A stretch of DNA of 64,000 nucleotides, from assembly GCA_964540475.1 (NCBI GenBank), contig CAZIMC010000001.1, forward strand, positions 269,240 through 333,239. Reading direction: 5' to 3'. The position numbers were made by a program, and so were the translations under genes. Positions 2,705 through 49,908 of this stretch are shown here, in pieces (position 1 is the first letter of the stretch; each line of letters starts with the position of its first letter). The notes beneath the pieces were generated by a model. That model was not told the origin of the DNA and did not search any database. It saw nothing but the letters and a program-made list of their open reading frames with translations. Source of the DNA: an uncultured Gammaproteobacteria bacterium (GTDB taxonomy: Bacteria; Patescibacteriota; Microgenomatia; UBA8517).

Positions 2705-3489
2705 TTAAGATATTTTATTATCTTAGGGTTTGGATTTTGATGAGCAGAAATGCATTTTTGATCTGGTTCAATCAGCGATTTTTATTTTTAATTTTTTTGG
2801 TCGGAAAGTTAATGAGATTCTTCCTGTTTTTTGTTTTCTTGATCTTGATTACACAAGGGGCACAAAATATAGCGGGATATTCAACTAATCAGATCGTTTT
2901 CTTTTTTCTAACATTTAACCTAGTTGACGTTGTAGGGCAATTCTTATTTCGTGAAGTATATCGGTTCAGAAACCTGTTGATCTCGGGAGATTTTGATTTG
3001 ATATTAGTTAAGCCTGTAAATAGTTTGTTCAGAGTATTGATGGGTGGAGCGGATTTTATTGATTTAATTACCATCCCTCCGCTTATATGGGGAGTATATT
3101 ACTTTGGTCAAACATTAAACCCCAGCGCTAGTGAAATTGTAATGTTTGTAATATTAATAATTAACGGAATTCTAATTGCAACAGCTTTCCATATTGTGGT
3201 TGTAAGCTTGGCTATTATCACTTTAGAAATTGATCATTCAATTATGATATATCGAGATTTAACTTCCCTTGGGAGGTTCCCGGTCGATATCTACCGTGAA
3301 CCTTTAAGGGGACTTCTCACGTATCTTATTCCAGTTGGCTTAATGGTTACTATACCTGCAAGGGCACTTATGGGCATGGTTACTCCGCCTGCGGTTCTAT
3401 TGTCATTATTTTTCGGGCTATTTTGTGTGATTCTCTCGGTCAGATTTTGGGATGTTGCCTTGAAAAAGTACACAAGCGCTAGTAGCTAA
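2701..3489 (+). CDS. ABC-2 family transporter permease (second subunit)
   Basis: Multi-TM hydrophobic protein overlapping the previous permease stop; third gene of the ABC operon. Confidence 0.6.
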   Translation: MIKIFYYLRVWILMSRNAFLIWFNQRFLFLIFLVGKLMRFFLFFVFLILITQGAQNIAGYSTNQIVFFFLTFNLVDVVGQFLFREVYRFRNLLISGDFDLILVKPVNSLFRVLMGGADFIDLITIPPLIWGVYYFGQTLNPSASEIVMFVILIINGILIATAFHIVVVSLAIITLEIDHSIMIYRDLTSLGRFPVDIYREPLRGLLTYLIPVGLMVTIPARALMGMVTPPAVLLSLFFGLFCVILSVRFWDVALKKYTSASS

Positions 3490-3532
3490 ATATCTGGAGA
3501 GATTGAGGAAAAAATGATATATTCTAAAATAT

Positions 3533-4510
3533 ATGCCAAGAAAAATTGAAATTTCACATCGAACTATAATTTTTGCAGTACTCTTTTTGCTCTTTTTATG
3601 GTTTTTATATGTTATTAGGGGCATAATTCTTGAGGTTTTTGTTGCTCTTCTTCTAATGGCAATATTAAATCCTTTAGTTAGCAAATTGTCTAATTATAGA
3701 ATCCCCAGGGCATTATCAGTCGCGATAACGTACTTGTTGGTTTTTGGAGTTTTTGGTGCAGCACTATTCTCCCTTATACCTCCGTTAATCGAGCAAACTG
3801 CCGGTTTTGCTTCTAGTTTGCCAGTGTATTTACAAATGCTACCGTCTGAATTTCTTGTAAATGAGCAGCTTGTGAATCAGCTTCTATCACAAATAGGTGG
3901 AATACCTTCTCAGGTGTTACGAGTCCTGCTTTCAGTCCTATCTAATGTTTTTGAGATACTTACAATTTTAATTTTCGCATTTTACCTTCTTATTTCCAGA
4001 AACAAATTAGATGACCAATTGGGCTCCTTTTTAGGAGAGAACAGGAAACAAGAAATAGCTAGTGTGATTGACGCATTGGAGAAAAGGCTGGGTGCTTGGG
4101 CTAGAGGCCAAATAGCGTTAATGTTTCTAGTTGGTGTACTAACATATATCGGATTGACTGTATTGGGAGTACCTTATTCACTACCTTTGGCAATACTGGC
4201 AGGATTGTTGGAGATTATTCCTTATCTGGGGCCAATCATAGCTGCAATACCTGCTATACTGATAGGCTTTGGTATATCGCCCCTGATGGGAATTGCACTG
4301 GTTGTGCTCTACTTCATAATTCAACAGCTTGAAAGCTATGTATTTGCACCTAAAGTTATGGAAAGTTCAGCTGGTGTTTCTCCTATTGTGACATTATTGT
4401 CATTAGCAATCGGGTTTAGGCTGGCAGGAATTATTGGTGTAATAATTGCGATTCCAATTGTATTATCTGTGCAGGTTTTATCACAGAAATATTTTTCTTC
4501 AAAACACTAA
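3533..4510 (+). CDS. AI-2E family transporter (PerM/UPF0118-like)
   Basis: 325 aa, about 8 TM segments; ...LLEIIPYLGPIIAAIPAIL... is the characteristic AI-2E block. Confidence 0.7.
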   Translation: MPRKIEISHRTIIFAVLFLLFLWFLYVIRGIILEVFVALLLMAILNPLVSKLSNYRIPRALSVAITYLLVFGVFGAALFSLIPPLIEQTAGFASSLPVYLQMLPSEFLVNEQLVNQLLSQIGGIPSQVLRVLLSVLSNVFEILTILIFAFYLLISRNKLDDQLGSFLGENRKQEIASVIDALEKRLGAWARGQIALMFLVGVLTYIGLTVLGVPYSLPLAILAGLLEIIPYLGPIIAAIPAILIGFGISPLMGIALVVLYFIIQQLESYVFAPKVMESSAGVSPIVTLLSLAIGFRLAGIIGVIIAIPIVLSVQVLSQKYFSSKH

Positions 4511-4538
4511 GTGTAAGTGGAATAAGTGTGCCAAATTT

Positions 4539-4546
4539 GGTATAAT
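4539..4546 (+). promoter_or_regulatory. Extended -10 element (TGgTATAAT) for the RNase P RNA gene
   Basis: tggtataat lies 8-9 nt upstream of the predicted RNA 5' end (ctggaaga...). Confidence 0.4.
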
Positions 4547-4554
4547 TAAAGCAT

Positions 4555-4848
4555 CTGGAAGAAGGGTGACTACTCCGAATTAAATCGGAGAGGAAAGTCC
4601 AGGCAGCAGAAAGCAGGGTGCCCGCTGTAAGGCGGGGCGGGAAACCGCCAGTTAGAGCCACAGAGACTATGTCGATTTCTTTACCCTAAAGGTACGAGAA
4701 AAACGAGTGAAAAGAGGCAATCCTCCCCGCTGCAACCTCCGACTAGAGCACAAGGTAGCTTTCCTAGCTCTAAAGTTGAGGGCTTAGACAGATTGTCACC
4801 ACTCCGGTCAACCGGAGATAACAGAACCTGGCTTACTCTCTTCCAGAT
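4555..4848 (+). ncRNA. rnpB: RNase P RNA, bacterial type A (compact, about 294 nt)
   Basis: Conserved blocks match the type A consensus. P4 5' strand GAGGAAAGUCCAGGC; CAGGGUGCCCGCUGUAAGGCGGGGCGGGAAACCGCC (P5-P7/GNRA); CACAGAGAC; CUUAGACAGAUUGUCACCAC; ACAGAACCUGGCUUAC (P4 3' strand). P1 is formed by ctggaagaag (4555-) and ctcttccag (4838-4846). No ORF in the region is coherent. Confidence 0.85.
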
Positions 4849-4858
4849 TACAAGGATT

Positions 4859-4880
4859 GGGCTCACTTAATAGTGAGCCC
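4859..4880 (+). terminator. Stem-loop immediately 3' of rnpB (gggctcac-ttaata-gtgagccc), followed by a second hairpin ttcctc..gaggaa
   Basis: Perfect 8-bp stem; weak U-tract (ttcctcgttt). Likely the 3' processing/termination structure of the RNase P RNA transcript. Confidence 0.3.
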
Positions 4881-5146
4881 TTCCTCGTTTAAAGAGAGGA
4901 AGAGAACAAGGTTCTGGGGTTACCCACCAGGTTCTTACTCTCATCCTGATTTTTTGTTTAAATAGCAAAGAGCTAGATTTCTAGGTAACCCTTGGTTTTT
5001 AAACTCCTCGAGATATAGCAGAGTACTCATAAAGGGGACTTTTTGATGTCTAAGCATTGACATTTTCACGAAAAAAAATGAAAATCTGAATAAGTAGGAA
5101 GGGGGTGATTTAAATAAATAATTTATCAGTTTGGCAGAATGCACTC

Positions 5147-5797
5147 ATGGACTCATGGGGGCAAGTTATAAACTCCTTTTTGCTGGTAATTCCGAATGTT
5201 GTTGCCGCAATAGTAATTTTTGCAATTGGCTTGATACTTGCATATTGGGTCAAGCGGCTCATTGTGGATGGTCTAAAAGCACTTAAGTTAGAAGGCTTTC
5301 TTAAAAATGCCGGTGTAGACAATTATCTCGCTAAGGCAGATATCCGTTTAACTTTTGTAGAGCTTATTGGAACAATATTTCAGTGGCTAGTCATATTAGT
5401 ATTTTTCCTGGCAGTGGTTGATATATTGGGTTTGGGTATGGTCTCCGAGGTTTTAACTAGAGTTTTGGGTTACTTACCCAATGTATTGGCGGCATCTTTG
5501 ATCTTTGCTGCTGGTTATATAGTTTCAGGCTTGGCAGATGGGGTGGTTCGGGGAGCAATCGCATCAGTTGATCCGCAAATTGCAAGACCTACTGGAAAGA
5601 TTGCAAGATATGTAATTATTCTTGTTGCCTTATTTGCGGCTATTGATCAGCTGCAAATTGCGCAAGGGCTAATCGTTACATTCTTTCAAGGTTTAACCTA
5701 TACAGTGGTATTGGTGGTTGGTCTCTCAGTCGGATTGGGGGCGAAAGATTTGGTCTCAAAACTATTAATGGAATGGTATGATCGCCTGAGAAAGTAA
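5147..5797 (+). CDS. Membrane protein with repeated conserved TM helices (MscS-N-terminal-like 'conserved TM helix' repeats)
   Basis: 216 aa, 5-6 TM helices. A candidate -35 ttgaca (5057-5062) lies upstream. No catalytic motif recognised. Confidence 0.45.
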   Translation: MDSWGQVINSFLLVIPNVVAAIVIFAIGLILAYWVKRLIVDGLKALKLEGFLKNAGVDNYLAKADIRLTFVELIGTIFQWLVILVFFLAVVDILGLGMVSEVLTRVLGYLPNVLAASLIFAAGYIVSGLADGVVRGAIASVDPQIARPTGKIARYVIILVALFAAIDQLQIAQGLIVTFFQGLTYTVVLVVGLSVGLGAKDLVSKLLMEWYDRLRK

Positions 5798-5835
5798 GCG
5801 AAAAGTTGACCATTCTTTGTGGTAAGCTAAGATTA

Positions 5836-7368
5836 ATGCTTGCCAAGATTTTGTCCGGTGCGACTGTTGGCTTAGAGGCCGTACTAATTGATGTTGAGGT
5901 CGATATTGCAGAACAAGGCTTGCCATCATTTACTATAGTGGGTCTTCCCGATAAAGCGGTTGAAGAAAGCAAAGAGAGGGTCAGGTCTGCCATAAAAAAT
6001 TCTGGGGCAGATTTTCCTGTAAGTCGCATCACGGTCAACCTGGCACCAGCTGACCTGCCCAAAGCTGGGCCTTCATATGATCTACCAATTGCACTTGGAA
6101 TACTGGTTGCTTCAGGCCAAATTAGGCCCAACCTTGAAAGCTCCATTTTTGTGGGCGAACTGTCTCTAGACGGAAATTTGAGACAAACAAATGGCGTACT
6201 GCCAATTACATATCTCGCCAGTCAGAAAAAAATTGACAAAGTCTTCATTCCAAAAATAAACGAGCAGGAGGCGGTTGTTGTATCAAAAACTGAAGTATAT
6301 GCTGTAAATTCATTACTCGAGTTGGTGCGCTTTTTTTGTAGCACTACGGAGTTAAAATCTTCTCCCAAGATTAGTCTAAGCACATTTTTGAAAAAAGCAG
6401 AAGCAGAATTTGACTTCTCGGAGGTAATCGGTCAGGAAAACGCCAAACGTGCACTTGAGATTGCTGCTGCCGGGGGACACAACGTGTTTATGAAAGGTAC
6501 GCCTGGATCCGGAAAAACTATGTTAGCAAGAGCCTTTCCAGGAATCTTACCAACTCTATCGGAAGACGAAGCACTTGAGGTTACTAAAATCTATTCTGTT
6601 AGTGGTAATCTTACTCCTGGTAATTCTATTATCACAACGAGACCATTCAGAAGCCCACACCACACAACTTCAAGAATTGGTCTTATAGGAGGGGGAACTA
6701 ATCCCGCGCCCGGGGAAATTTCACTTGCCCATAGAGGTGTACTTTTTTTGGACGAATTTCCTGAATTTCCAAGACACGTTCTTGAGGCGCTTAGACAACC
6801 AATAGAAGACGGTATTGTTTCAATCTCACGTGCCAAGGGTACGGTTACATACCCTTCTAAATTCATGTTGATAGCAGCCTCAAATCCGTGTCCCTGCGGC
6901 TACTACGGCGATTCTAAGAGGCGTTGCACATGTTTACCAGGACAAATCAGTCGGTATGAAAAAAGGGTGTCTGGACCAATTTTAGATAGAATTGATATTC
7001 ATCTTGATATTCCATCAGTAGAAACACAAAAACTGGTTGATGGTGACAGGGAAAGATCACCTTCCTCATTAACTATCCAGAGAAGGGTACAAAGAGCCCG
7101 CGAGATACAACTTAATCGCTTTTCTGACACAAAACTAAAAAGTAATAGCGAAATGTCGACTCGGAATGTTAAGCAGTATGCCCCACTCTCCTCCGAATGT
7201 CGCACAATATTAATGAGTGCGATTGCAACTATGAATCTTTCTGCAAGGAGCTATTTTAAAGTTGTAAAAGTAGCTAGGACAATTGCCGACCTTGCGGGAG
7301 AAAAACAAATTAATCCTAATCACCTAGCTGAAGCTTTGCAGTATAGACCAAAAATTAGCGAAAATTAA
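5836..7368 (+). CDS. comM: YifB/ComM family Mg-chelatase-like AAA+ ATPase
   Basis: N-terminal MLAKILSGATVGLEAVLIDVEVD (ComM start). Walker A GTPGSGKTMLA, Walker B LFLDEFPEF, C-terminal C4 zinc motif CPCG..C..CTC. The listed ORF start at 5806 is TTG; ATG at 5836 is preferred. Confidence 0.85.
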   Translation: MLAKILSGATVGLEAVLIDVEVDIAEQGLPSFTIVGLPDKAVEESKERVRSAIKNSGADFPVSRITVNLAPADLPKAGPSYDLPIALGILVASGQIRPNLESSIFVGELSLDGNLRQTNGVLPITYLASQKKIDKVFIPKINEQEAVVVSKTEVYAVNSLLELVRFFCSTTELKSSPKISLSTFLKKAEAEFDFSEVIGQENAKRALEIAAAGGHNVFMKGTPGSGKTMLARAFPGILPTLSEDEALEVTKIYSVSGNLTPGNSIITTRPFRSPHHTTSRIGLIGGGTNPAPGEISLAHRGVLFLDEFPEFPRHVLEALRQPIEDGIVSISRAKGTVTYPSKFMLIAASNPCPCGYYGDSKRRCTCLPGQISRYEKRVSGPILDRIDIHLDIPSVETQKLVDGDRERSPSSLTIQRRVQRAREIQLNRFSDTKLKSNSEMSTRNVKQYAPLSSECRTILMSAIATMNLSARSYFKVVKVARTIADLAGEKQINPNHLAEALQYRPKISEN

Positions 7369-43245: not shown

Positions 43246-43653
43246 CTAGCCTTCCAAACTTTTTCTTGCCATTACCAGTTTGTAGTTTTCAATGACCTTT
43301 TTATTATATTTAATGTATGTAGTTAATACCCGTTTCATCAATTCCCTCTCTTTAGCAACCTCAAATTTTGCAACTGTTTCTCGTATATCTTCCTCGTCTA
43401 TCATTAGCTTGCCGTAATAATGCTGGTTCACATACCGCACGGCATATTTTAGGGGAACTCTGGCAAGCCATTCCTGTCGAGACTCATTTTTCGATTTTAC
43501 CGGAGCCGGATCAATGAGATTTAAAAACTTAAACCAGTAACTCCTAATTTTCTTTTTCATTAAGTTTAATATTACCTCTGAGCAAGGCAATAATCTATCA
43601 AACCCAAGCAATTTGGGGTAAAATACGGTCAGAATGGCCAATAAAAATCTCAC
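43246..43653 (-). CDS. Hypothetical protein (likely start at internal Met 43560, MKKKIRSYW...)
   Basis: ORF only; divergent from the methyltransferase operon. The long form would overlap the MTase start by 20 nt. Confidence 0.35.
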   Translation of the reverse strand: MRFLLAILTVFYPKLLGFDRLLPCSEVILNLMKKKIRSYWFKFLNLIDPAPVKSKNESRQEWLARVPLKYAVRYVNQHYYGKLMIDEEDIRETVAKFEVAKERELMKRVLTTYIKYNKKVIENYKLVMARKSLEG

Positions 43654-44770
43654 AAACGCAAAACGGGTAAAGAACGACGAGTTTTATACCCAGTTTCCTG
43701 ATATCCAAAAAGAAATGGAAGCGTATTTGGAATATAACCCAGATACGTTTCGAGGTAAGGTGGTCTACTGCAACTGCGATGATCCTTTTGAGAGCAATTT
43801 TTTTAGATATTTTGCGCTTAATTTCAAACGTCTCAAGTTAAAAAAACTAATCACAACAAGCTATAAAGGCTCGCCAGTTGCCTTCACTCAGTCTGCCATT
43901 CCTGGAACGGGAGTCACTGATCAAGAAGCTGCAAGACCAAAGGGTCGTTCTACTAAAGCTGTGGCGTATGAAATAACAACTGTTGGGGATTTTAATAATG
44001 ACGGAGAGTTTAACAGTGAAGATATTAATTATCTTCTTACTCATCCTCAAAATTTATCAAAAGAACTGCATGGAAATAGCATTTACTCCGCTGGAGATTT
44101 CAGAAGCGATGAATGCATATTACTCTTGAAGCAGTCAGACATTGTGGTTACCAACCCACCATTTAGTCTTTTTAGAGAGTATGTTAAACAACTGTTTGAA
44201 CACAACAAAAAGTTTTCAATAATTGCCAGTTTAAATGCCATTACATATAAAGAACTATTTCCACTTATAAAAGAAAATAAAATGTGGCTGGGTAGAGGTT
44301 TTAATGCAGGTAACGCTTATTTTTTGACACCAAACGTCAGAGATTTTGCATTAGGTGTTTATGATGAGAAAACGGGACTTGTGAAGTTTCGCAACTGTCA
44401 CTGGTTTACAAATTTGGATCACGGAAAGCGACATACTCCATTAAGATTGTCTACAATGGAAGATAACCTAAAGTTCAGAGACGATAAACTAAGAGCGAAA
44501 AATGCTTATGAAAAATACGACAACTATGACGCCATAGAAGTGCCATTTACCGATGCCATACCAAGTAATTATTCTGGAGTAATGGGTGTACCAATCAGTT
44601 TTTTAGATAAATACAACCCCGAGCAGTTTGGGATAATTGGTGGTACCGCAAACGGTTTAGTGCCTGTGGAGTTTAAAATTGGGGATTTCAAGGTGTATAA
44701 CAATCCTATTATAGGCAATAGAAAAGTATTTCAACGGATTCTTATAAAACACAAAAACCCAAAATCATGA
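43634..44770 (+). CDS. DNA N6-adenine methyltransferase, EcoRI-methylase-like family
   Basis: N-terminal ...KNDEFYT... and catalytic motif IV NPPF (VVTNPPFSL), characteristic of the M.EcoRI-like family. Confidence 0.65.
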
Positions 44771-45936
44771 AAACTACACTTTGGACAAATACTACAGTGC
44801 GAGAAGTGGTTGACGGCTTCGAGTATAACGAGCTTGAGGGAAAGGGTTTGTTCGGGCTTACAGGCAAACTTACCATCCAGCCGGAATACCAACGTAATTA
44901 TATTTATGCCAGTGACGGTGGGAAGCGCGAGCAGGCAGTTATAGAATCTCTTCTTAAAGGCTACCCAATTGGACTTATTTATATTAATAAATTAAAAACA
45001 GATAAGTACGAAGTTTTAGATGGCCAACAACGCATAACGAGTATCGGCAGGTTTGTAACTAACAAGTTTGCCATTAAGGATGAATACGAACATGAGCAGT
45101 ATTTTAGCGGCATGGCAGAAGATAAACAGGCAAAAATTATGGAAGCAAAACTGTTGATCTATGAGTGCATGGGAACGGAAAGTGAAATAAAAGAATGGTT
45201 TAAGACAATTAACATTGCAGGCGTGCCGCTCAATGAACAGGAACTGTTAAATGCCGTTTATTCGGGTCCGTTTGTAACTAAGGCCAAAGAAGAGTTCAGC
45301 AATAGCCAAAATTCACATATTTATAAATGGGGGTCATATATTAATGGTGTAGCTAATAGGCAAGACTTTTTGGCAACTGCTATTGAGTGGGTAAGCCGCG
45401 GAGAAGTGGGAGAATACATGAGTCGTCACCGCTATGATGACAATATTGAGGAGCTTATAACACATTTCAACACTGTAATTGACTGGGTTTCTGGCGTGTT
45501 TGCCGACGTCGAAAAAGAAATGAGGGGACTGCCGTGGGGAAGATTATATGATGAGTATCATAAAAAATTTTACGATCCGGAAAAAGTATCTGAGCAAGTG
45601 CAACATCTTTATGGCGACCCCTATGTCAAAAACCGCAGGGGTATTTTTGAGTATGTACTGGGTGATTCGAAAGACACCAAATTACTTGAAGTGCGAGTGT
45701 TTGACGATGCTACTAAAAGAGTCGTATACGAAAAGCAAACAAAGATGGCCAATGCCAAAGGGGTAAGTAATTGCCCATATTGTGCTATAGGAAATGATGC
45801 GAACAAGACAAAGGTGTGGCAGATTTTTGAAATGGATGCCGACCATGTTGCGGCTTGGAGCAAGGGTGGCGAGACAAACATAGAAAATTGCCAAATGCTT
45901 TGCAAGACACACAATCGCGTAAAAGGAAACCGATAA
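44767..45936 (+). CDS. DUF262 (ParB-like nuclease/NTPase, DGQQR motif) + C-terminal HNH endonuclease fusion
   Basis: ...[12 protein letters not shown]... DUF262 signature; C-terminal ...CPYCA...[27 protein letters not shown]... HNH (His-Me finger). ATGA overlap with the MTase stop. Confidence 0.65.
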
Positions 45937-45994: not shown

Positions 45995-46408
45995 ATGAGG
46001 GAAGAAAATAAGCGAAAGCACCTTGAATTTATACAAAACACAATTAGCAGGATGTCGGGCAATTTGTTTTTTCTCCGTGGCTGGACAGTAACACTAATTA
46101 CTGCGATGTTTGCCCTGTTTGTTAAGGATGCTAATCAGCGCTTTATTTTTGTAGCCTATATACCCCTGCTTGTCTTTTGGATGTTAGATGGCTACTTTTT
46201 GTCTCAAGAAAGATTATTCCGGGCATTATACGAACATGTACGCAAACTGCCGCAAGAAAGGATAGATTTTTCAATGGACACCACCAAGTATCGAGGCCAC
46301 CGCGGAAACAGCTGGCTAGCTGCCATCTTGTCTCACACTTTGCTAATGTTCTACCTTCCGTTCTTTGTATTGTTGGTGGGAATAACATATTGGTTATGCA
46401 AGGACTAA
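45995..46408 (+). CDS. Small multi-TM protein (2-3 TM; SLATT-like architecture), candidate membrane effector
   Basis: 137 aa. N-terminal amphipathic region, then hydrophobic helices GWTVTLITAMFALFV, FIFVAYIPLLVFWMLDGYFL and LAAILSHTLLMFYLPFFVLLVGITYWL. 3' end overlaps the TIR gene start by 13 nt. Confidence 0.5.
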   Translation: MREENKRKHLEFIQNTISRMSGNLFFLRGWTVTLITAMFALFVKDANQRFIFVAYIPLLVFWMLDGYFLSQERLFRALYEHVRKLPQERIDFSMDTTKYRGHRGNSWLAAILSHTLLMFYLPFFVLLVGITYWLCKD

Positions 46409-46905
46409 ACGCAAAAAGACAGGTTTTCTACAGTTTTCACTACAAACCTGACTGTTGGCGCGCAGCCCAGGTTCGCAGCATTGGTGTGATTGAGGGCAAC
46501 AGGCCTGCTCCAGATAATGACTGGGAAGAGATAAAAGGCGCGGGCGAGGATGCAATCAGACGCTGGATAAACAAACAATTGGAGTATAGGTCTTGTACAC
46601 TAGTATTAGTTGGAAGCGAAACAGCCAACAGGAAGTGGATAAACTATGAAATAGTTGAGTCTTGGAACAGAGGCATGGGGGTGGCGGGAATTTACATTCA
46701 TGGTTTAATGGACAATAACAAATTCGTTTCTCATATTGGAAACAACCCTTTTGACTATATACTTCTCGGGGGTAATATTCCTTTATCAAGTGTGGCCAAA
46801 TGTTACAACCCAATAGGTGCAAATAGCAAAGAAATATATGATTGGATATCTAGAAATATATCTGCTATGGTTGAAGAAGCAATAACCATAAGATCAAAAT
46901 ATTAA
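46396..46905 (+). CDS. TIR-like domain protein, ThsB-like (DUF1863/TIR_2 family)
   Basis: Blocks colinear with Thoeris ThsB: RQVFYSFHYKPD, CTLVLVGSETANRKWINYEI (contains the candidate catalytic Glu), GIYIHGL, GNNPFDYILLG. True ATG at 46396; the upstream part of the listed 46177 ORF overlaps the previous gene in another frame. Confidence 0.65.
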   Translation: MQGLNAKRQVFYSFHYKPDCWRAAQVRSIGVIEGNRPAPDNDWEEIKGAGEDAIRRWINKQLEYRSCTLVLVGSETANRKWINYEIVESWNRGMGVAGIYIHGLMDNNKFVSHIGNNPFDYILLGGNIPLSSVAKCYNPIGANSKEIYDWISRNISAMVEEAITIRSKY

Positions 46906-47666: not shown

Positions 47667-48314
47667 TTGCCTATAGCTTCTATGAAAAAACTGTTCTTCG
47701 ATATTGAAACGCTTCCTCTTGAAAAAGACAAGCACCATATCTTAAAAGAGCTTCACGAAAAAATGCTTGATGACGGAAAGAAAAAAGATTTTGAAACTCT
47801 TCTTTCAGAAACTTCATTTGACGGCGGTTTCGGGAGAATTGCCTGCATCAGTTATGCAGTTAACGACGAGCCGGTTGCAACATTGCGGGGAGACGAAGTG
47901 CAAATGCTAAAAAAGTTTTGGGAGATTGTGAAGGACTGTGATTTATTTGTTGGCTACAACATTTTCAGTTTTGATCTGCGCTTTTTATACCAAAGATCGG
48001 TGGTTTTGCGTGTTCAACCGAGTAAAGAGCTTAGTTTTGCAAGGTACAGGAATAACCCGATTTTTGACATTATGTGTGAGTGGGCCAAGTGGGACAGCCG
48101 AAATAATATAAGTATGGACCGTTTGGCTAGAGTGTTGGGGCTTCCTACCTCCAAAGGCGGCGAAGTTGAAGGGAAAAATCTGGCAAAGGCTTTTGAAGAC
48201 GGGAAAATTGACGAGATTTGTGAGTACTGCGAAAAAGACGTTGAACTGACAAGAAAAATTTATAAAAGAATGATTTTTGAGGACGAACCCACCCAAAACG
48301 AAATACCGTTTTGA
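47667..48314 (+). CDS. DEDDy-type 3'-5' exonuclease (RNase H-like, YprB/COG3298-like)
   Basis: Exo I LFFDIETLPL, Exo II FVGYNIFSFDLRFL, Exo III YCEKDVELT (Y-x3-D). Confidence 0.6.
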   Translation: MPIASMKKLFFDIETLPLEKDKHHILKELHEKMLDDGKKKDFETLLSETSFDGGFGRIACISYAVNDEPVATLRGDEVQMLKKFWEIVKDCDLFVGYNIFSFDLRFLYQRSVVLRVQPSKELSFARYRNNPIFDIMCEWAKWDSRNNISMDRLARVLGLPTSKGGEVEGKNLAKAFEDGKIDEICEYCEKDVELTRKIYKRMIFEDEPTQNEIPF

Positions 48315-48925
48315 TCTGGCTTTACATGCAAGATTTCACAAAGGACCCAGAGTATATTAAGGCAAGGAGGGAATTTAGCAGAAAACTTCGTTTTAGTAAA
48401 AAGTTTCGCGACAACCTTAGAAAGAGCGCTTTGGAATTGGAGACATATGGCCTAAAGGGATTAGAGATTAACGAAAAAATTCCCAGTAACCTTTGGAAGG
48501 GGAAAGATACAATAATGTTTGAGACATTTTTAGACTTGTCTCAAAAGTTTCTAGAAAGCATAAAAAATTGCGAAGATGATGCGAAAAAGGACTCGATAAG
48601 ATTCAAAAAATATCAGTTTTATAAAAAGAAAAACGGTAAAAGCATAATAATCAGATGCACATTCTATAAAGTTTACGAGAAGAAAAGTAAAATTGCCTGC
48701 TTTTATTTTGAAGATGGTTTGAAGAAAAATAAGCGATTGAAGGGTGTAAGGTACAGAAGAAGCATGTCAACAAAAGGTTATGAGTTTATTGATGAGGGAA
48801 AGTTTAGATACAAACACAGAGATATTGACCATTTCATATATATTTTTGAAGGGAGAAAAACATACGAAATCAAGATTTCTGCCAGAGACAACAAGAAAGA
48901 TAAATTTTGGATTGAGCTGTTGTAA
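48311..48925 (+). CDS. Hypothetical Lys-rich protein
   Basis: ORF 204 aa, very K-rich, low local GC; start overlaps the exonuclease stop. Confidence 0.35.
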   Translation: MIWLYMQDFTKDPEYIKARREFSRKLRFSKKFRDNLRKSALELETYGLKGLEINEKIPSNLWKGKDTIMFETFLDLSQKFLESIKNCEDDAKKDSIRFKKYQFYKKKNGKSIIIRCTFYKVYEKKSKIACFYFEDGLKKNKRLKGVRYRRSMSTKGYEFIDEGKFRYKHRDIDHFIYIFEGRKTYEIKISARDNKKDKFWIELL

Positions 48926-49014
48926 TTAAGGTTTTTGATATGTTTTTCTTTATAGAGCCAGATTTTGCCTCTAACTTTAGGATTGAAGTATAATATCTCC
49001 TATAGTTCACACTT

Positions 49015-49908
49015 ATGCAGAGAGAAAGATCAGTTTGGGAAACTTTCCAAAGAAGGATGGCGCGGTTAGATGCGCGGATGGAGGCGTGGAGTAAAAGATT
49101 AGAAGAAGCAGATAATAGAAATAGAGAAATACATTTGTACGGCAAAGAAGTAAAGCATCGTGACAGGTGGAATTCTGAAACCTTCCATGAATATCTTTTT
49201 GCCGTAAATCGTGACAAGAATTATTTAATGCCACAGGCAGACTATCCGGACCAAATTGAGCTGGGGCGAGAATGGCATGCTGTGTTTAATCAAATGAGGC
49301 AAGAAACGCAAGACGGCTATGAGAGAATTTCCGTTCAAGGCGTAATGCAGAATTCCAGGCAAGTAGTGCTGGGTAAAGTAGATGTTGGTAAAAAGCATTT
49401 TGTTCCTGGAGATTTAATTTTCAGACTTAGAAAAAATCTAATTCACGATGGAGCAGACAATACTCTTTCAGATGTGCATACACATCCTAGAAAGTTGTGG
49501 CGAAGTGAATTTTTATCCATACCCGATGATACTGATGGCAGATATAGTCAGAGAACTGCAAGTTTTTCCGCCGGAGACTTGTATTGTCTAGCCGAACTTC
49601 GAATTCCGCATTTTTTTATGGGTTTAATTGACGGCCATTGGAATTATTTGGCTTTTAGATCCCGAGAAACCTTATCCACTAATTTGCATTATCTCCGAGG
49701 CGGGAGTCAAGAGGATTTTGCTAGGCATTGGTATAGGATGGTGGGTTTTGACTATACACCACATGATTATGATAAGGACCAAAGCGGTAAGCTTAAACCA
49801 TTTGCCGTTGATGCCAACATTCGAAGATTAACTCCTTTGGTAGCATCAAGACACAATCTGGTGGTTTATGCAGGAAGGCCAAACCGCGATTTGGAGTGGT
49901 ATTACTAG
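49015..49908 (+). CDS. Hypothetical protein with HxH...S..D (JAMM/MPN-like?) metal motif
   Basis: ...SDVHTHPRKLWRSEFLSIPDD...; spacing deviates from the canonical JAMM HxHx7Sx2D (here x10), so the assignment is tentative. Confidence 0.35.
   Translation: MQRERSVWETFQRRMARLDARMEAWSKRLEEADNRNREIHLYGKEVKHRDRWNSETFHEYLFAVNRDKNYLMPQADYPDQIELGREWHAVFNQMRQETQDGYERISVQGVMQNSRQVVLGKVDVGKKHFVPGDLIFRLRKNLIHDGADNTLSDVHTHPRKLWRSEFLSIPDDTDGRYSQRTASFSAGDLYCLAELRIPHFFMGLIDGHWNYLAFRSRETLSTNLHYLRGGSQEDFARHWYRMVGFDYTPHDYDKDQSGKLKPFAVDANIRRLTPLVASRHNLVVYAGRPNRDLEWYY

What the first reader, a model, noticed from the sequence alone, without database searches (positions are those of the whole stretch)
45995..46905. 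Overlapping gene pair: small 2-3TM protein + ThsB-like TIR-domain protein — candidate minimal TIR/membrane-effector defence module with no ThsA
What I see: the 169-aa ORF (46396..46905) has four blocks colinear with Thoeris ThsB/DUF1863 TIR-like proteins (VFYSFHY; CTLVLVGSETANRKWINYEI with a conserved Glu; GIYIHGL; GNNPFDY). The supplied 242-aa ORF is an artefact of an upstream in-frame extension. Overlapping its start by 13 nt is a 137-aa protein with an amphipathic N-terminus and 2-3 TM helices and no soluble sensor domain. No SIR2-SLOG or Macro (ThsA) gene is in the window. Established knowledge: ThsB TIR enzymes make NAD-derived signals that activate a separate effector. SLATT-type 2TM proteins are predicted membrane-disrupting effectors of nucleotide-signalling conflict systems. 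Inference: the two genes may form a compact abortive-infection-type system, or a new Thoeris-like variant, embedded in a defence island with an R-M pair immediately upstream.
Basis: partly seen in the sequence, partly recalled or inferred. Interest (0 to 1): 0.8.

Follow-up and report, generated by a model that had tools for sequence, protein, structure and literature searches.

The report
Type V Thoeris: ThsF membrane effector plus ThsB
The overlapping gene pair is a real two-gene anti-phage system, a TIR sensor enzyme plus a small three-helix membrane protein, but it belongs to the already described "type V Thoeris" family (ThsB + ThsF), so it is a correct but ordinary finding.

Summary
A 137-aa three-helix membrane protein (45995..46408) overlaps by 13 nt a 169-aa ThsB-type TIR protein (46396..46905). 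An R-M pair lies directly upstream, and there is no SIR2/SLOG/Macro ThsA nearby.

- PADLOC-DB 2023 already lists the pair as candidate system PDC-M50 (A: 6e-49; B: 3e-59).
- Yirmiya et al. (bioRxiv, Dec 2025) validated it as type V Thoeris. The TIR makes 3'cADPR on infection. This activates ThsF, a 3-TM protein modelled as a ring-shaped membrane channel.
- The window membrane protein is 46% identical (E=6e-46) to the ThsF encoded next to the validated B. thuringiensis DAR 81934 ThsB.
- The window TIR is 68% identical to a TIR that the paper lists as type V.
- In 75 of 80 related genomic loci the membrane gene sits next to one or more TIR genes, of at least six classes.

The membrane protein is not SLATT. 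Neither it nor the validated ThsF reaches Pfam's DUF2270 threshold.

One question stays open. This TIR class has only been assayed in a type XI system, where its signal is unknown.

Novelty: already known. Interest: low.

The parts
45995..46408 (+). thsF: 137-aa three-TM membrane effector of type V Thoeris (PADLOC PDC-M50A)
   Evidence: PADLOC PDC-M50A 6.1e-49. 46% identity, E=6e-46, to the 141-aa gene directly downstream of the validated B. thuringiensis ThsB. Three hydrophobic peaks and three long AF2 helices. All family-invariant residues are retained: R19, D65, E72, R76, W62, Q14.
46396..46905 (+). thsB: 169-aa ThsB-type TIR protein (sensor and signal synthase), with predicted catalytic Glu85 in the NYEI motif
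   Evidence: Pfam PF08937 2e-24. PADLOC ThsB 2.6e-66 and PDC-M50B 3.4e-59. PDB 8WCF 1e-34 and 6LHY 1e-18, with the Glu aligned. 68% identical to a TIR listed as 'DUF2270 - Type V' in Table S1 of 10.64898/2025.12.03.692087.
46396..46408 (+). 13-nt overlap of the thsF stop region with the thsB start. It suggests co-transcription and possibly translational coupling.
   Evidence: Read directly from the sequence. Homologous loci have gaps of -4 to about +30 nt between the two genes.
43634..44770 (+). Context, not part of the system: EcoRI-like adenine-specific DNA methyltransferase
   Evidence: Pfam PF13651 1.7e-116; PADLOC MTase_II 1.9e-98.
44767..45936 (+). Context, not part of the system: DUF262/GmrSD_N + HNH endonuclease, the probable restriction partner. 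It ends 58 nt before thsF.
   Evidence: Pfam GmrSD_N 9e-22 and HNH 6e-07; PADLOC REase_II 2.1e-84.

Best explanation
The pair is a type V Thoeris anti-phage system. ThsB (46396..46905) is a TIR-domain enzyme that is silent until it senses phage infection. It then converts NAD+ into a cyclic ADP-ribose isomer, most likely 3'cADPR. ThsF (45995..46408) is a 137-aa inner-membrane protein with three membrane helices. Its conserved, basic N-terminal helix and its post-TM2 helix are predicted to face the cytoplasm. ThsF is thought to assemble into a ring-shaped homo-oligomer. Signal binding at inter-protomer basic pockets is proposed to open or distort the ring. That would breach the membrane and stop growth before the phage completes its cycle (abortive infection).

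Shown here:
- orthology of both genes to validated type V components;
- three-TM architecture;
- an aligned catalytic Glu;
- near-obligate adjacency of ThsF to TIR genes.

Shown by others for orthologues, not for this locus:
- phage defence;
- infection-dependent 3'cADPR synthesis;
- 3'cADPR-triggered toxicity;
- inhibition by the Tad1 sponge.

Inferred:
- the identity of the signal for this TIR class;
- the oligomer;
- the pocket residues;
- the topology.
For: Effector (ThsF):
- It hits PADLOC PDC-M50A at 6e-49, and the TIR hits PDC-M50B at 3e-59.
- The paper's TIR sequence for B. thuringiensis DAR 81934 is 100% identical to P0271.
- On its contig the next gene is a 141-aa protein. The window protein is 46% identical to it over 127 aa, E=6e-46.

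TIR (ThsB):
- It is 68% identical to IMG 2627254940, which Table S1 labels 'DUF2270 - Type V'.
- Its Glu85 aligns with the RYEI Glu of BcThsB 6LHY.

Gene context:
- 75 of 80 ThsF loci carry one to three adjacent co-directional TIR genes of at least six classes. This is the Thoeris hallmark of one conserved effector with swappable sensors.
- One ThsF gene is flanked by mixed TIR classes in several loci. L074 has the 1NLA3E type plus the window type. L066 has the Bt type plus class B. L032/43/45/76/77 have class B plus the window type.
- These mixed loci link the window's TIR class, transitively, to the two classes shown to make 3'cADPR.

Conservation and structure:
- Invariant polar residues are shared by the window protein, the 3'cADPR-responsive Bt ThsF and 114 diverse representatives. 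R19 and E72 are 100% conserved, D65 99%, R76 93%.
- The AF2 model has three long helices, pLDDT 86.7.
- Natural SLOG-ThsF fusions (P0142: LD_cluster2 1.7e-15) show the TM module being used as an output domain behind a known cADPR-type sensor.

Published mechanism.
Against: - Nothing was tested on this locus or in its (probably Patescibacteria-like) host.
- The window's TIR class is the paper's cluster 2661146773. The only member assayed there is a type XI TIR (38% identical). It made none of the known signals.
- In the paper one of the two defending type V systems (Bacillus sp. 1NLA3E) was not intoxicated by added 3'cADPR. So 3'cADPR may not be the universal ThsF ligand.
- The heptameric ring is only an AF3 prediction by others. 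I could not run multimer modelling.
- Neither the window protein nor the validated Bt ThsF reaches Pfam PF10028 (DUF2270). Only sub-threshold hits appear in some family members, E 0.006-0.3.
- No solved structure resembles the monomer model.
Confidence: 0.85

Rival explanations
1. Same architecture, different chemistry. The window's ThsB class makes a signal other than 3'cADPR, possibly the unidentified type XI signal, and this ThsF clade is tuned to that molecule.
For: - The window TIR falls in the paper's TIR cluster 2661146773. Its only assayed member (type XI, 38% identical) produced none of the known TIR signals.
- The 1NLA3E type V system was not triggered by exogenous 3'cADPR.
- A Streptomyces plasmid has a ThsF homologue beside a HIT-TIR pair.
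Against: - The putative pocket residues are invariant between the window ThsF and the 3'cADPR-responsive Bt ThsF.
- Mixed-TIR loci put the window's TIR class around the same ThsF as 3'cADPR-producing classes.
- No HIT gene occurs in any of the 80 ThsF loci.
- The window TIR is also homologous to the 3'cADPR-producing type I ThsB, 6LHY, 1e-18.
Confidence: 0.2
2. Reversed logic. The TIR is an NAD+-depleting effector, and the membrane protein is a sensor, anchor or regulator rather than the killer.
For: TIR domains act as NADase effectors in CBASS, Pycsar, SPARTA and Avs. The paper's own limitations section allows this for unverified TIR configurations.
Against: - For type V the TIR expressed alone makes 3'cADPR only on infection.
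- Added 3'cADPR is toxic only with the effector present.
- A 3'cADPR sponge abolishes defence.
- One ThsF is served by many unrelated TIR classes. That fits a common effector, not a common sensor.
- SLOG-ThsF fusions place the TM module in the output position.
Confidence: 0.04
3. The adjacency is incidental, or the genes are decayed remnants with no joint function in this genome.
For: The host appears to be a reduced-genome, uncultured lineage. No promoter or terminator signal above chance delimits an operon.
Against: - Both ORFs are intact.
- All invariant family residues and the catalytic Glu are retained.
- There is a 13-nt overlap.
- 75/80 loci conserve the pairing.
- Decayed examples look different, for example L080, which is cut by an IS.
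Confidence: 0.02

Closest known systems
Type V Thoeris (ThsB + ThsF), Yirmiya et al., bioRxiv 10.64898/2025.12.03.692087 (Dec 2025)
   Same: - It is a two-gene operon of a TIR protein and a roughly 135-140-aa three-TM effector.
- The window ThsF is 46% identical to the B. thuringiensis DAR 81934 effector.
- The window TIR is 68% identical to a TIR listed as type V.
- It sits in a defence-island context.
   Different: - The gene order here is effector first, with a 13-nt overlap. The validated Bacillus systems have the TIR first.
- The TIR is a short ThsB/DUF1863-type. It is not the 250-aa Bt-type or the 1NLA3E-type that were assayed.
- The host is probably a Patescibacteria-like organism.
- The paper's Pfam label DUF2270 is not reproduced at threshold, for this protein or for the validated one.
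PADLOC-DB v2.0.0 candidate system PDC-M50 (2023)
   Same: Both proteins match its models over their full length: PDC-M50A 6.1e-49 and PDC-M50B 3.4e-59.
   Different: PDC-M50 is only a computational candidate with no description. I found no paper that mentions it.
Type I Thoeris (ThsB + ThsA SIR2-SLOG)
   Same: It has a ThsB-type TIR with the same catalytic Glu motif (6LHY, 1e-18). The likely signal is the same, 3'cADPR. ThsB genes are variable and multiple per effector.
   Different: There is no SIR2-SLOG ThsA here. The predicted killing mechanism is membrane disruption, not NAD+ depletion.
Type II Thoeris (ThsC: TM + Macro) and type VII Thoeris (ThsH: SLATT)
   Same: These are membrane-spanning effectors activated by a TIR-made ADPR derivative, and the outcome is abortive infection.
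   Different: ThsF has no Macro or SLATT domain. It has no separate soluble sensor domain at all. The signals differ: His-ADPR for type II and canonical cADPR for type VII.
Small TM effectors of CBASS and Pycsar (Cap14/Cap15-like, PycTM)
   Same: The logic is the same: a nucleotide second messenger activates a small membrane protein that collapses membrane integrity.
   Different: No sequence relationship was detected. The signal synthase is a TIR, not a CD-NTase or cyclase.

Membership tests
Type V Thoeris | Effector homologous to ThsF | tested here: met
   46% identity, E=6e-46, to the gene next to the validated B. thuringiensis ThsB. PADLOC PDC-M50A 6e-49.
Type V Thoeris | Effector has three membrane-spanning helices | tested here: met
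   Three Kyte-Doolittle peaks. AF2 helices 2-43, 48-84 and 114-136, pLDDT 86.7.
Type V Thoeris | Adjacent, co-directional TIR-domain gene (ThsB) | tested here: met
   13-nt overlap in the window. The pairing is conserved in 75/80 loci.
Type V Thoeris | Effector annotated as Pfam PF10028 (DUF2270) | tested here: not met
   There is no PF10028 hit for the window protein or for the validated Bt ThsF. Only sub-threshold hits appear in some relatives, E 0.006-0.3 against a cutoff of 25 bits. This is a labelling criterion that the reference protein itself fails in this Pfam release, so it does not weaken membership.
Type V Thoeris | TIR makes 3'cADPR on infection and the effector is triggered by it | not testable with these tools
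   This needs LC-MS, a ThsA reporter and toxicity assays. It is published only for the Bacillus orthologues.
Type V Thoeris | Protects against phage | not testable with these tools
   Plaque assays are needed. Two of the three tested type V operons defended, in B. subtilis.
Type V Thoeris | Ring-shaped homo-oligomer with basic inter-protomer pockets | not tested
   No multimer prediction was available. Conserved basic and polar residues (K6, R19, K/R28, R73, R76) lie on the predicted cytoplasmic helices.
ThsB / DUF1863 TIR | Significant match to the ThsB_TIR model and to solved ThsB structures | tested here: met
   PF08937 2e-24; 8WCF 1e-34; 6LHY 1e-18.
ThsB / DUF1863 TIR | Catalytic glutamate conserved | tested here: met
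   E85 in NYEI aligns with the Glu in RYEI of 6LHY. That this Glu is catalytic E85 of BcThsB comes from my own knowledge of the literature.
SLATT effectors | Match to a SLATT profile | tested here: not met
   No SLATT family at E<=10 for the window protein or for 25 relatives.
Type I / II Thoeris | ThsA with SIR2-SLOG or a Macro domain next to ThsB | tested here: not met
   None found in ORFs from 37.6 to 52.5 kb. tblastn with SIR2 and SLOG queries found nothing in the window.

The most novel reading that the evidence does not exclude
The short ThsB class in this window (the paper's cluster 2661146773) has never been assayed together with ThsF. Its only tested member, in a type XI system, makes an unidentified signal. 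It is therefore not excluded that this widespread subtype, common in Patescibacteria-labelled genomes, signals with a new TIR-derived molecule. In that case ThsF, which lacks any known sensor domain, would read that molecule directly within a 137-aa membrane protein.
Probability: 0.15. Interest if true: 0.55.

Novelty: already known. Interest (0 to 1): 0.15.

Why it matters
It matters little as a discovery, because the system has been catalogued (PADLOC PDC-M50) and experimentally validated (type V Thoeris). Three points have modest value.
- It is a clean example of type V Thoeris in what looks like a reduced-genome, Patescibacteria-like organism. 37 of the 80 closest loci are labelled as Patescibacteria or candidate-phyla-radiation lineages.
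- It shows that current Pfam does not recognise ThsF. Annotation has to rely on PADLOC or DefenseFinder models, or on homology to the validated protein.
- It points to an untested ThsB class paired with ThsF whose signal is still undetermined.

Tried and rejected
- SLATT identity for the membrane protein was rejected. There is no SLATT hit at E<=10 in 26 family members.
- DUF2270 membership by Pfam was not reproducible. Only sub-threshold hits appeared, and none for the validated ThsF. I had no bona fide PF10028 sequences for a profile-profile test.
- Weak hits to DUF3278 (24/26 members, best 5e-05, all below cutoff) and to 8xMP (E=0.012) were treated as TM-composition or very remote similarity. 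A literature search for 8xMP found nothing relevant.
- A structural search of the AF2 monomer against the PDB gave no match at E<=0.001. A sequence-profile search against the PDB gave nothing. The afdb50 library was unavailable.
- Literature searches for 'PDC-M50' and '8WCF' gave nothing.
- The promoter/terminator scan gave counts equal to the shuffled expectation, so it is uninformative.
- A look-up of the window's own contig by protein identity found no record. The organism is therefore not named.
- The B. cereus plasmid hit H1 has a Bt-type ThsB but no ThsF ORF downstream, so it was not usable as a reference.
- A possible HIT-hydrolase link to ThsF was tested, and none was found in the 80 loci.
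- The composition profile shows only a mild GC dip around 43-49 kb (0.35-0.40 against about 0.41). This is not strong evidence for a foreign island.

Full report
**Observation**

The window holds two overlapping + strand genes.
- ORF 45995..46408 encodes a 137-aa protein.
- An ATG at 46396 opens a 169-aa ORF that ends at 46905.
- The first gene's TAA is at 46406..46408, so the two genes share 13 nt.

The 242-aa ORF from a TTG at 46177 is an upstream extension that runs inside the first gene in another frame. Homologues begin M-x-x-KRQVFYSFHY. The exact 137-aa and 169-aa products are the ones on record at NCBI.

**The TIR protein**

- It matches Pfam PF08937 (ThsB_TIR) at 2e-24.
- It matches PADLOC ThsB models at 2.6e-66.
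- It matches solved structures 8WCF (1e-34) and the B. cereus type I ThsB structures 6LHY and 9B7D (1e-18).
- In those alignments Glu85 of the NYEI motif lines up with the Glu of RYEI. From my own knowledge of the literature, that residue is the catalytic E85 of BcThsB.

**The membrane protein**

- It has no Pfam or NCBIfam family.
- Hydropathy gives three peaks.
- An AlphaFold2 model built on 26 homologues (pLDDT 86.7) has three long helices, 2-43, 48-84 and 114-136.
- The N-terminal 23 residues and residues 67-112 are rich in Lys and Arg (5 and 8), while the TM1-TM2 loop is six residues long.
- By the positive-inside rule both conserved soluble segments should face the cytoplasm. This is inference.

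**How widespread and conserved the membrane protein is**

- It has at least 1,426 relatives at 90% clustering, nearly all about 133 aa.
- It has 4,819 representatives at 50% clustering with E<=1e-3.
- Across 116 diverse members, R19 and E72 are invariant, D65 is 99% conserved, Q14, W62 and F25 are 97%, and R76 is 93%. The window protein keeps all of them.

**Gene neighbourhood**

I fetched 80 genomic loci encoding relatives. 37 are labelled as Patescibacteria or candidate-phyla-radiation lineages. The rest span Pseudomonadota, Bacteroidota, Bacillota, Actinomycetota, Acidobacteriota and archaea.
- 58 loci have a homologue of the window TIR within about 1 kb of the membrane gene, in most cases directly downstream.
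- The other 22 mostly carry different TIR genes next to the membrane gene.
- Classifying by six TIR query types, 75 of 80 loci have one to three co-directional TIR genes flanking the membrane gene.
- The five exceptions include a contig end (L069) and a gene cut by a transposase (L080).
- Several loci combine two TIR classes around one membrane gene.

One conserved small effector with a variable set of TIR sensors is the Thoeris pattern.

**What it is**

PADLOC-DB 2.0 (2023) already has models for both proteins as the candidate system PDC-M50 (A: 6.1e-49; B: 3.4e-59).

Yirmiya et al. (bioRxiv 10.64898/2025.12.03.692087) surveyed TIR neighbourhoods and validated seven new Thoeris types. Their type V pairs a TIR with ThsF. 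They describe ThsF as a three-TM protein annotated DUF2270 and modelled by AF3 as a homo-heptameric channel with basic inter-protomer pockets. For the B. thuringiensis DAR 81934 system they report:
- infection-dependent 3'cADPR synthesis by the TIR;
- 3'cADPR-specific toxicity;
- loss of defence with the Tad1 sponge.

I linked the window to that system directly.
- The paper's TIR sequence for that strain is 100% identical to protein P0271.
- On its contig the next gene is a 141-aa ORF.
- The window membrane protein is 46% identical to that ORF over 127 residues, E=6e-46.
- The Bt-type TIR is also 49% identical to the gene directly upstream of a family member in Clostridium paridis.
- The window TIR is 68% identical to IMG 2627254940, which Table S1 lists as 'DUF2270 - Type V'.

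The pair is therefore type V Thoeris.

**Mechanism and how sure each step is**

Orthology, architecture and adjacency are shown here. Defence, signal and toxicity are shown only for Bacillus orthologues.

That this ThsB makes 3'cADPR is an inference. Three observations support it.
- Pocket-candidate residues are invariant between this ThsF and the 3'cADPR-responsive Bt ThsF.
- Mixed loci place the window's TIR class around the same ThsF as the 1NLA3E-type class (L074). Through class B they also link it to the Bt-type class (L066, L032/43/45/76/77).
- The window TIR is homologous to type I ThsB.

Two observations count against it.
- The window TIR belongs to the paper's cluster 2661146773. Its only assayed member, a type XI TIR that is 38% identical, made none of the known signals.
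- The 1NLA3E type V system did not respond to added 3'cADPR.

Natural fusions of a SLOG domain to a ThsF-like C-terminus exist (P0142, LD_cluster2 1.7e-15). They support the view that the TM module is the output device.

**What it is not**

- It is not SLATT: there is no hit at E<=10 in 26 members.
- There is no ThsA. No SIR2, SLOG or Macro domain occurs in ORFs from 37.6 to 52.5 kb. tblastn with SIR2 and SLOG queries found nothing in the window.
- The Pfam label DUF2270 is not reproduced. Neither the window protein nor the validated Bt ThsF hits PF10028. A few Bacillota relatives give sub-threshold hits in a consistent register, E 0.006-0.1. This is an annotation caveat, not a reason to doubt membership.
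- No solved structure resembles the monomer model.

**Context**

- The R-M pair directly upstream is real: an EcoRI-like methyltransferase plus a DUF262-HNH endonuclease with a 4-nt overlap.
- Related ThsF loci also often sit beside methyltransferases or restriction genes, for example L040, L041, L053 and L059.
- Downstream lie a PolB-type 3'-5' exonuclease and two proteins with no family hit.
- The rest of the window is housekeeping. GC dips only slightly over 43-49 kb.

**Verdict**

The remaining open question, the signal used by this particular ThsB class with ThsF, is narrow. Interest 0.15.

Noticed in passing
window 43634..45936: The R-M pair consists of an EcoRI-like adenine methyltransferase and a DUF262/GmrSD_N-HNH endonuclease (PADLOC REase_II 2e-84) with a 4-nt ATGA overlap. 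GmrSD-type N-terminal domains usually mark modification-dependent enzymes, so their pairing with a methyltransferase is worth a look.
   Followed up: partly
window 47667..49908: Downstream of thsB lies a PolB-type/DEDDh 3'-5' exonuclease (PF10108 8e-18). It overlaps a 204-aa ORF by 4 nt and is followed by a 297-aa ORF. Neither of those two has any Pfam, NCBIfam or PADLOC hit. They could be further defence or mobile-element genes.
   Followed up: partly
P0142, P0144 (representative proteins): These are natural fusions of an N-terminal SLOG domain (LD_cluster2 1.7e-15 in P0142) to a C-terminal ThsF-like 3-TM module. They suggest ThsF can be driven by a dedicated cADPR-type sensor domain.
   Followed up: partly
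P0156 and L083:4773-5195: P0156 fuses a Pfam 8xMP 'octameric membrane protein' domain (1.6e-27) to a ThsF module. The validated Bt ThsF itself gives a weak full-length 8xMP hit (E=0.012). This may be a remote relationship between ThsF and a ring-forming membrane family.
   Followed up: partly
L082 (NZ_AP022022.1) and plasmid hits H16-H30: ThsF homologues occur on 136 PLSDB plasmids, including 40 Klebsiella and 36 E. coli plasmids, most of them conjugative. In L082 a Bt-type TIR plus ThsF lies between a DNA methylase and parM/umuDC. Both genes are annotated only as TIR protein and hypothetical protein.
   Followed up: partly
H31-H33 (Vibrio phage 10N.286.55.*_PE00x, about 14.35 kb records), position 2222-2491: There is a ThsF-like ORF (37% identity over residues 9-97, E=3e-14) in three small Vibrio cyclitrophicus phage or phage-like element records.
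   Followed up: no
L085 (Streptomyces sp. NBC_00724 plasmid) 3444-5899: A ThsF homologue lies beside a HIT-domain gene on the opposite strand and a 510-aa TIR protein with a long C-terminal TM region. Type V-like and type XI-like components are juxtaposed here. No HIT gene was found in the 80 ThsF genomic loci.
   Followed up: partly
L081 (B. cereus plasmid NZ_CP053657.2) 1-6244: A Bt-type ThsB (53% identical) has no ThsF ORF downstream. It sits between two SIR2 + TIR gene pairs. This is a Thoeris-rich island with a possibly orphaned or re-wired ThsB.
   Followed up: no
L080 5679-6958: A ThsF gene is truncated after residue 93 by an inserted transposase gene on the opposite strand. This is an example of an inactivated system.
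   Followed up: no
Pfam PF10028 versus ThsF: The published label 'DUF2270' for ThsF is not recovered with the 2025 Pfam-A models, even for the validated B. thuringiensis protein. Pfam-based annotation pipelines will miss type V Thoeris effectors.
   Followed up: yes
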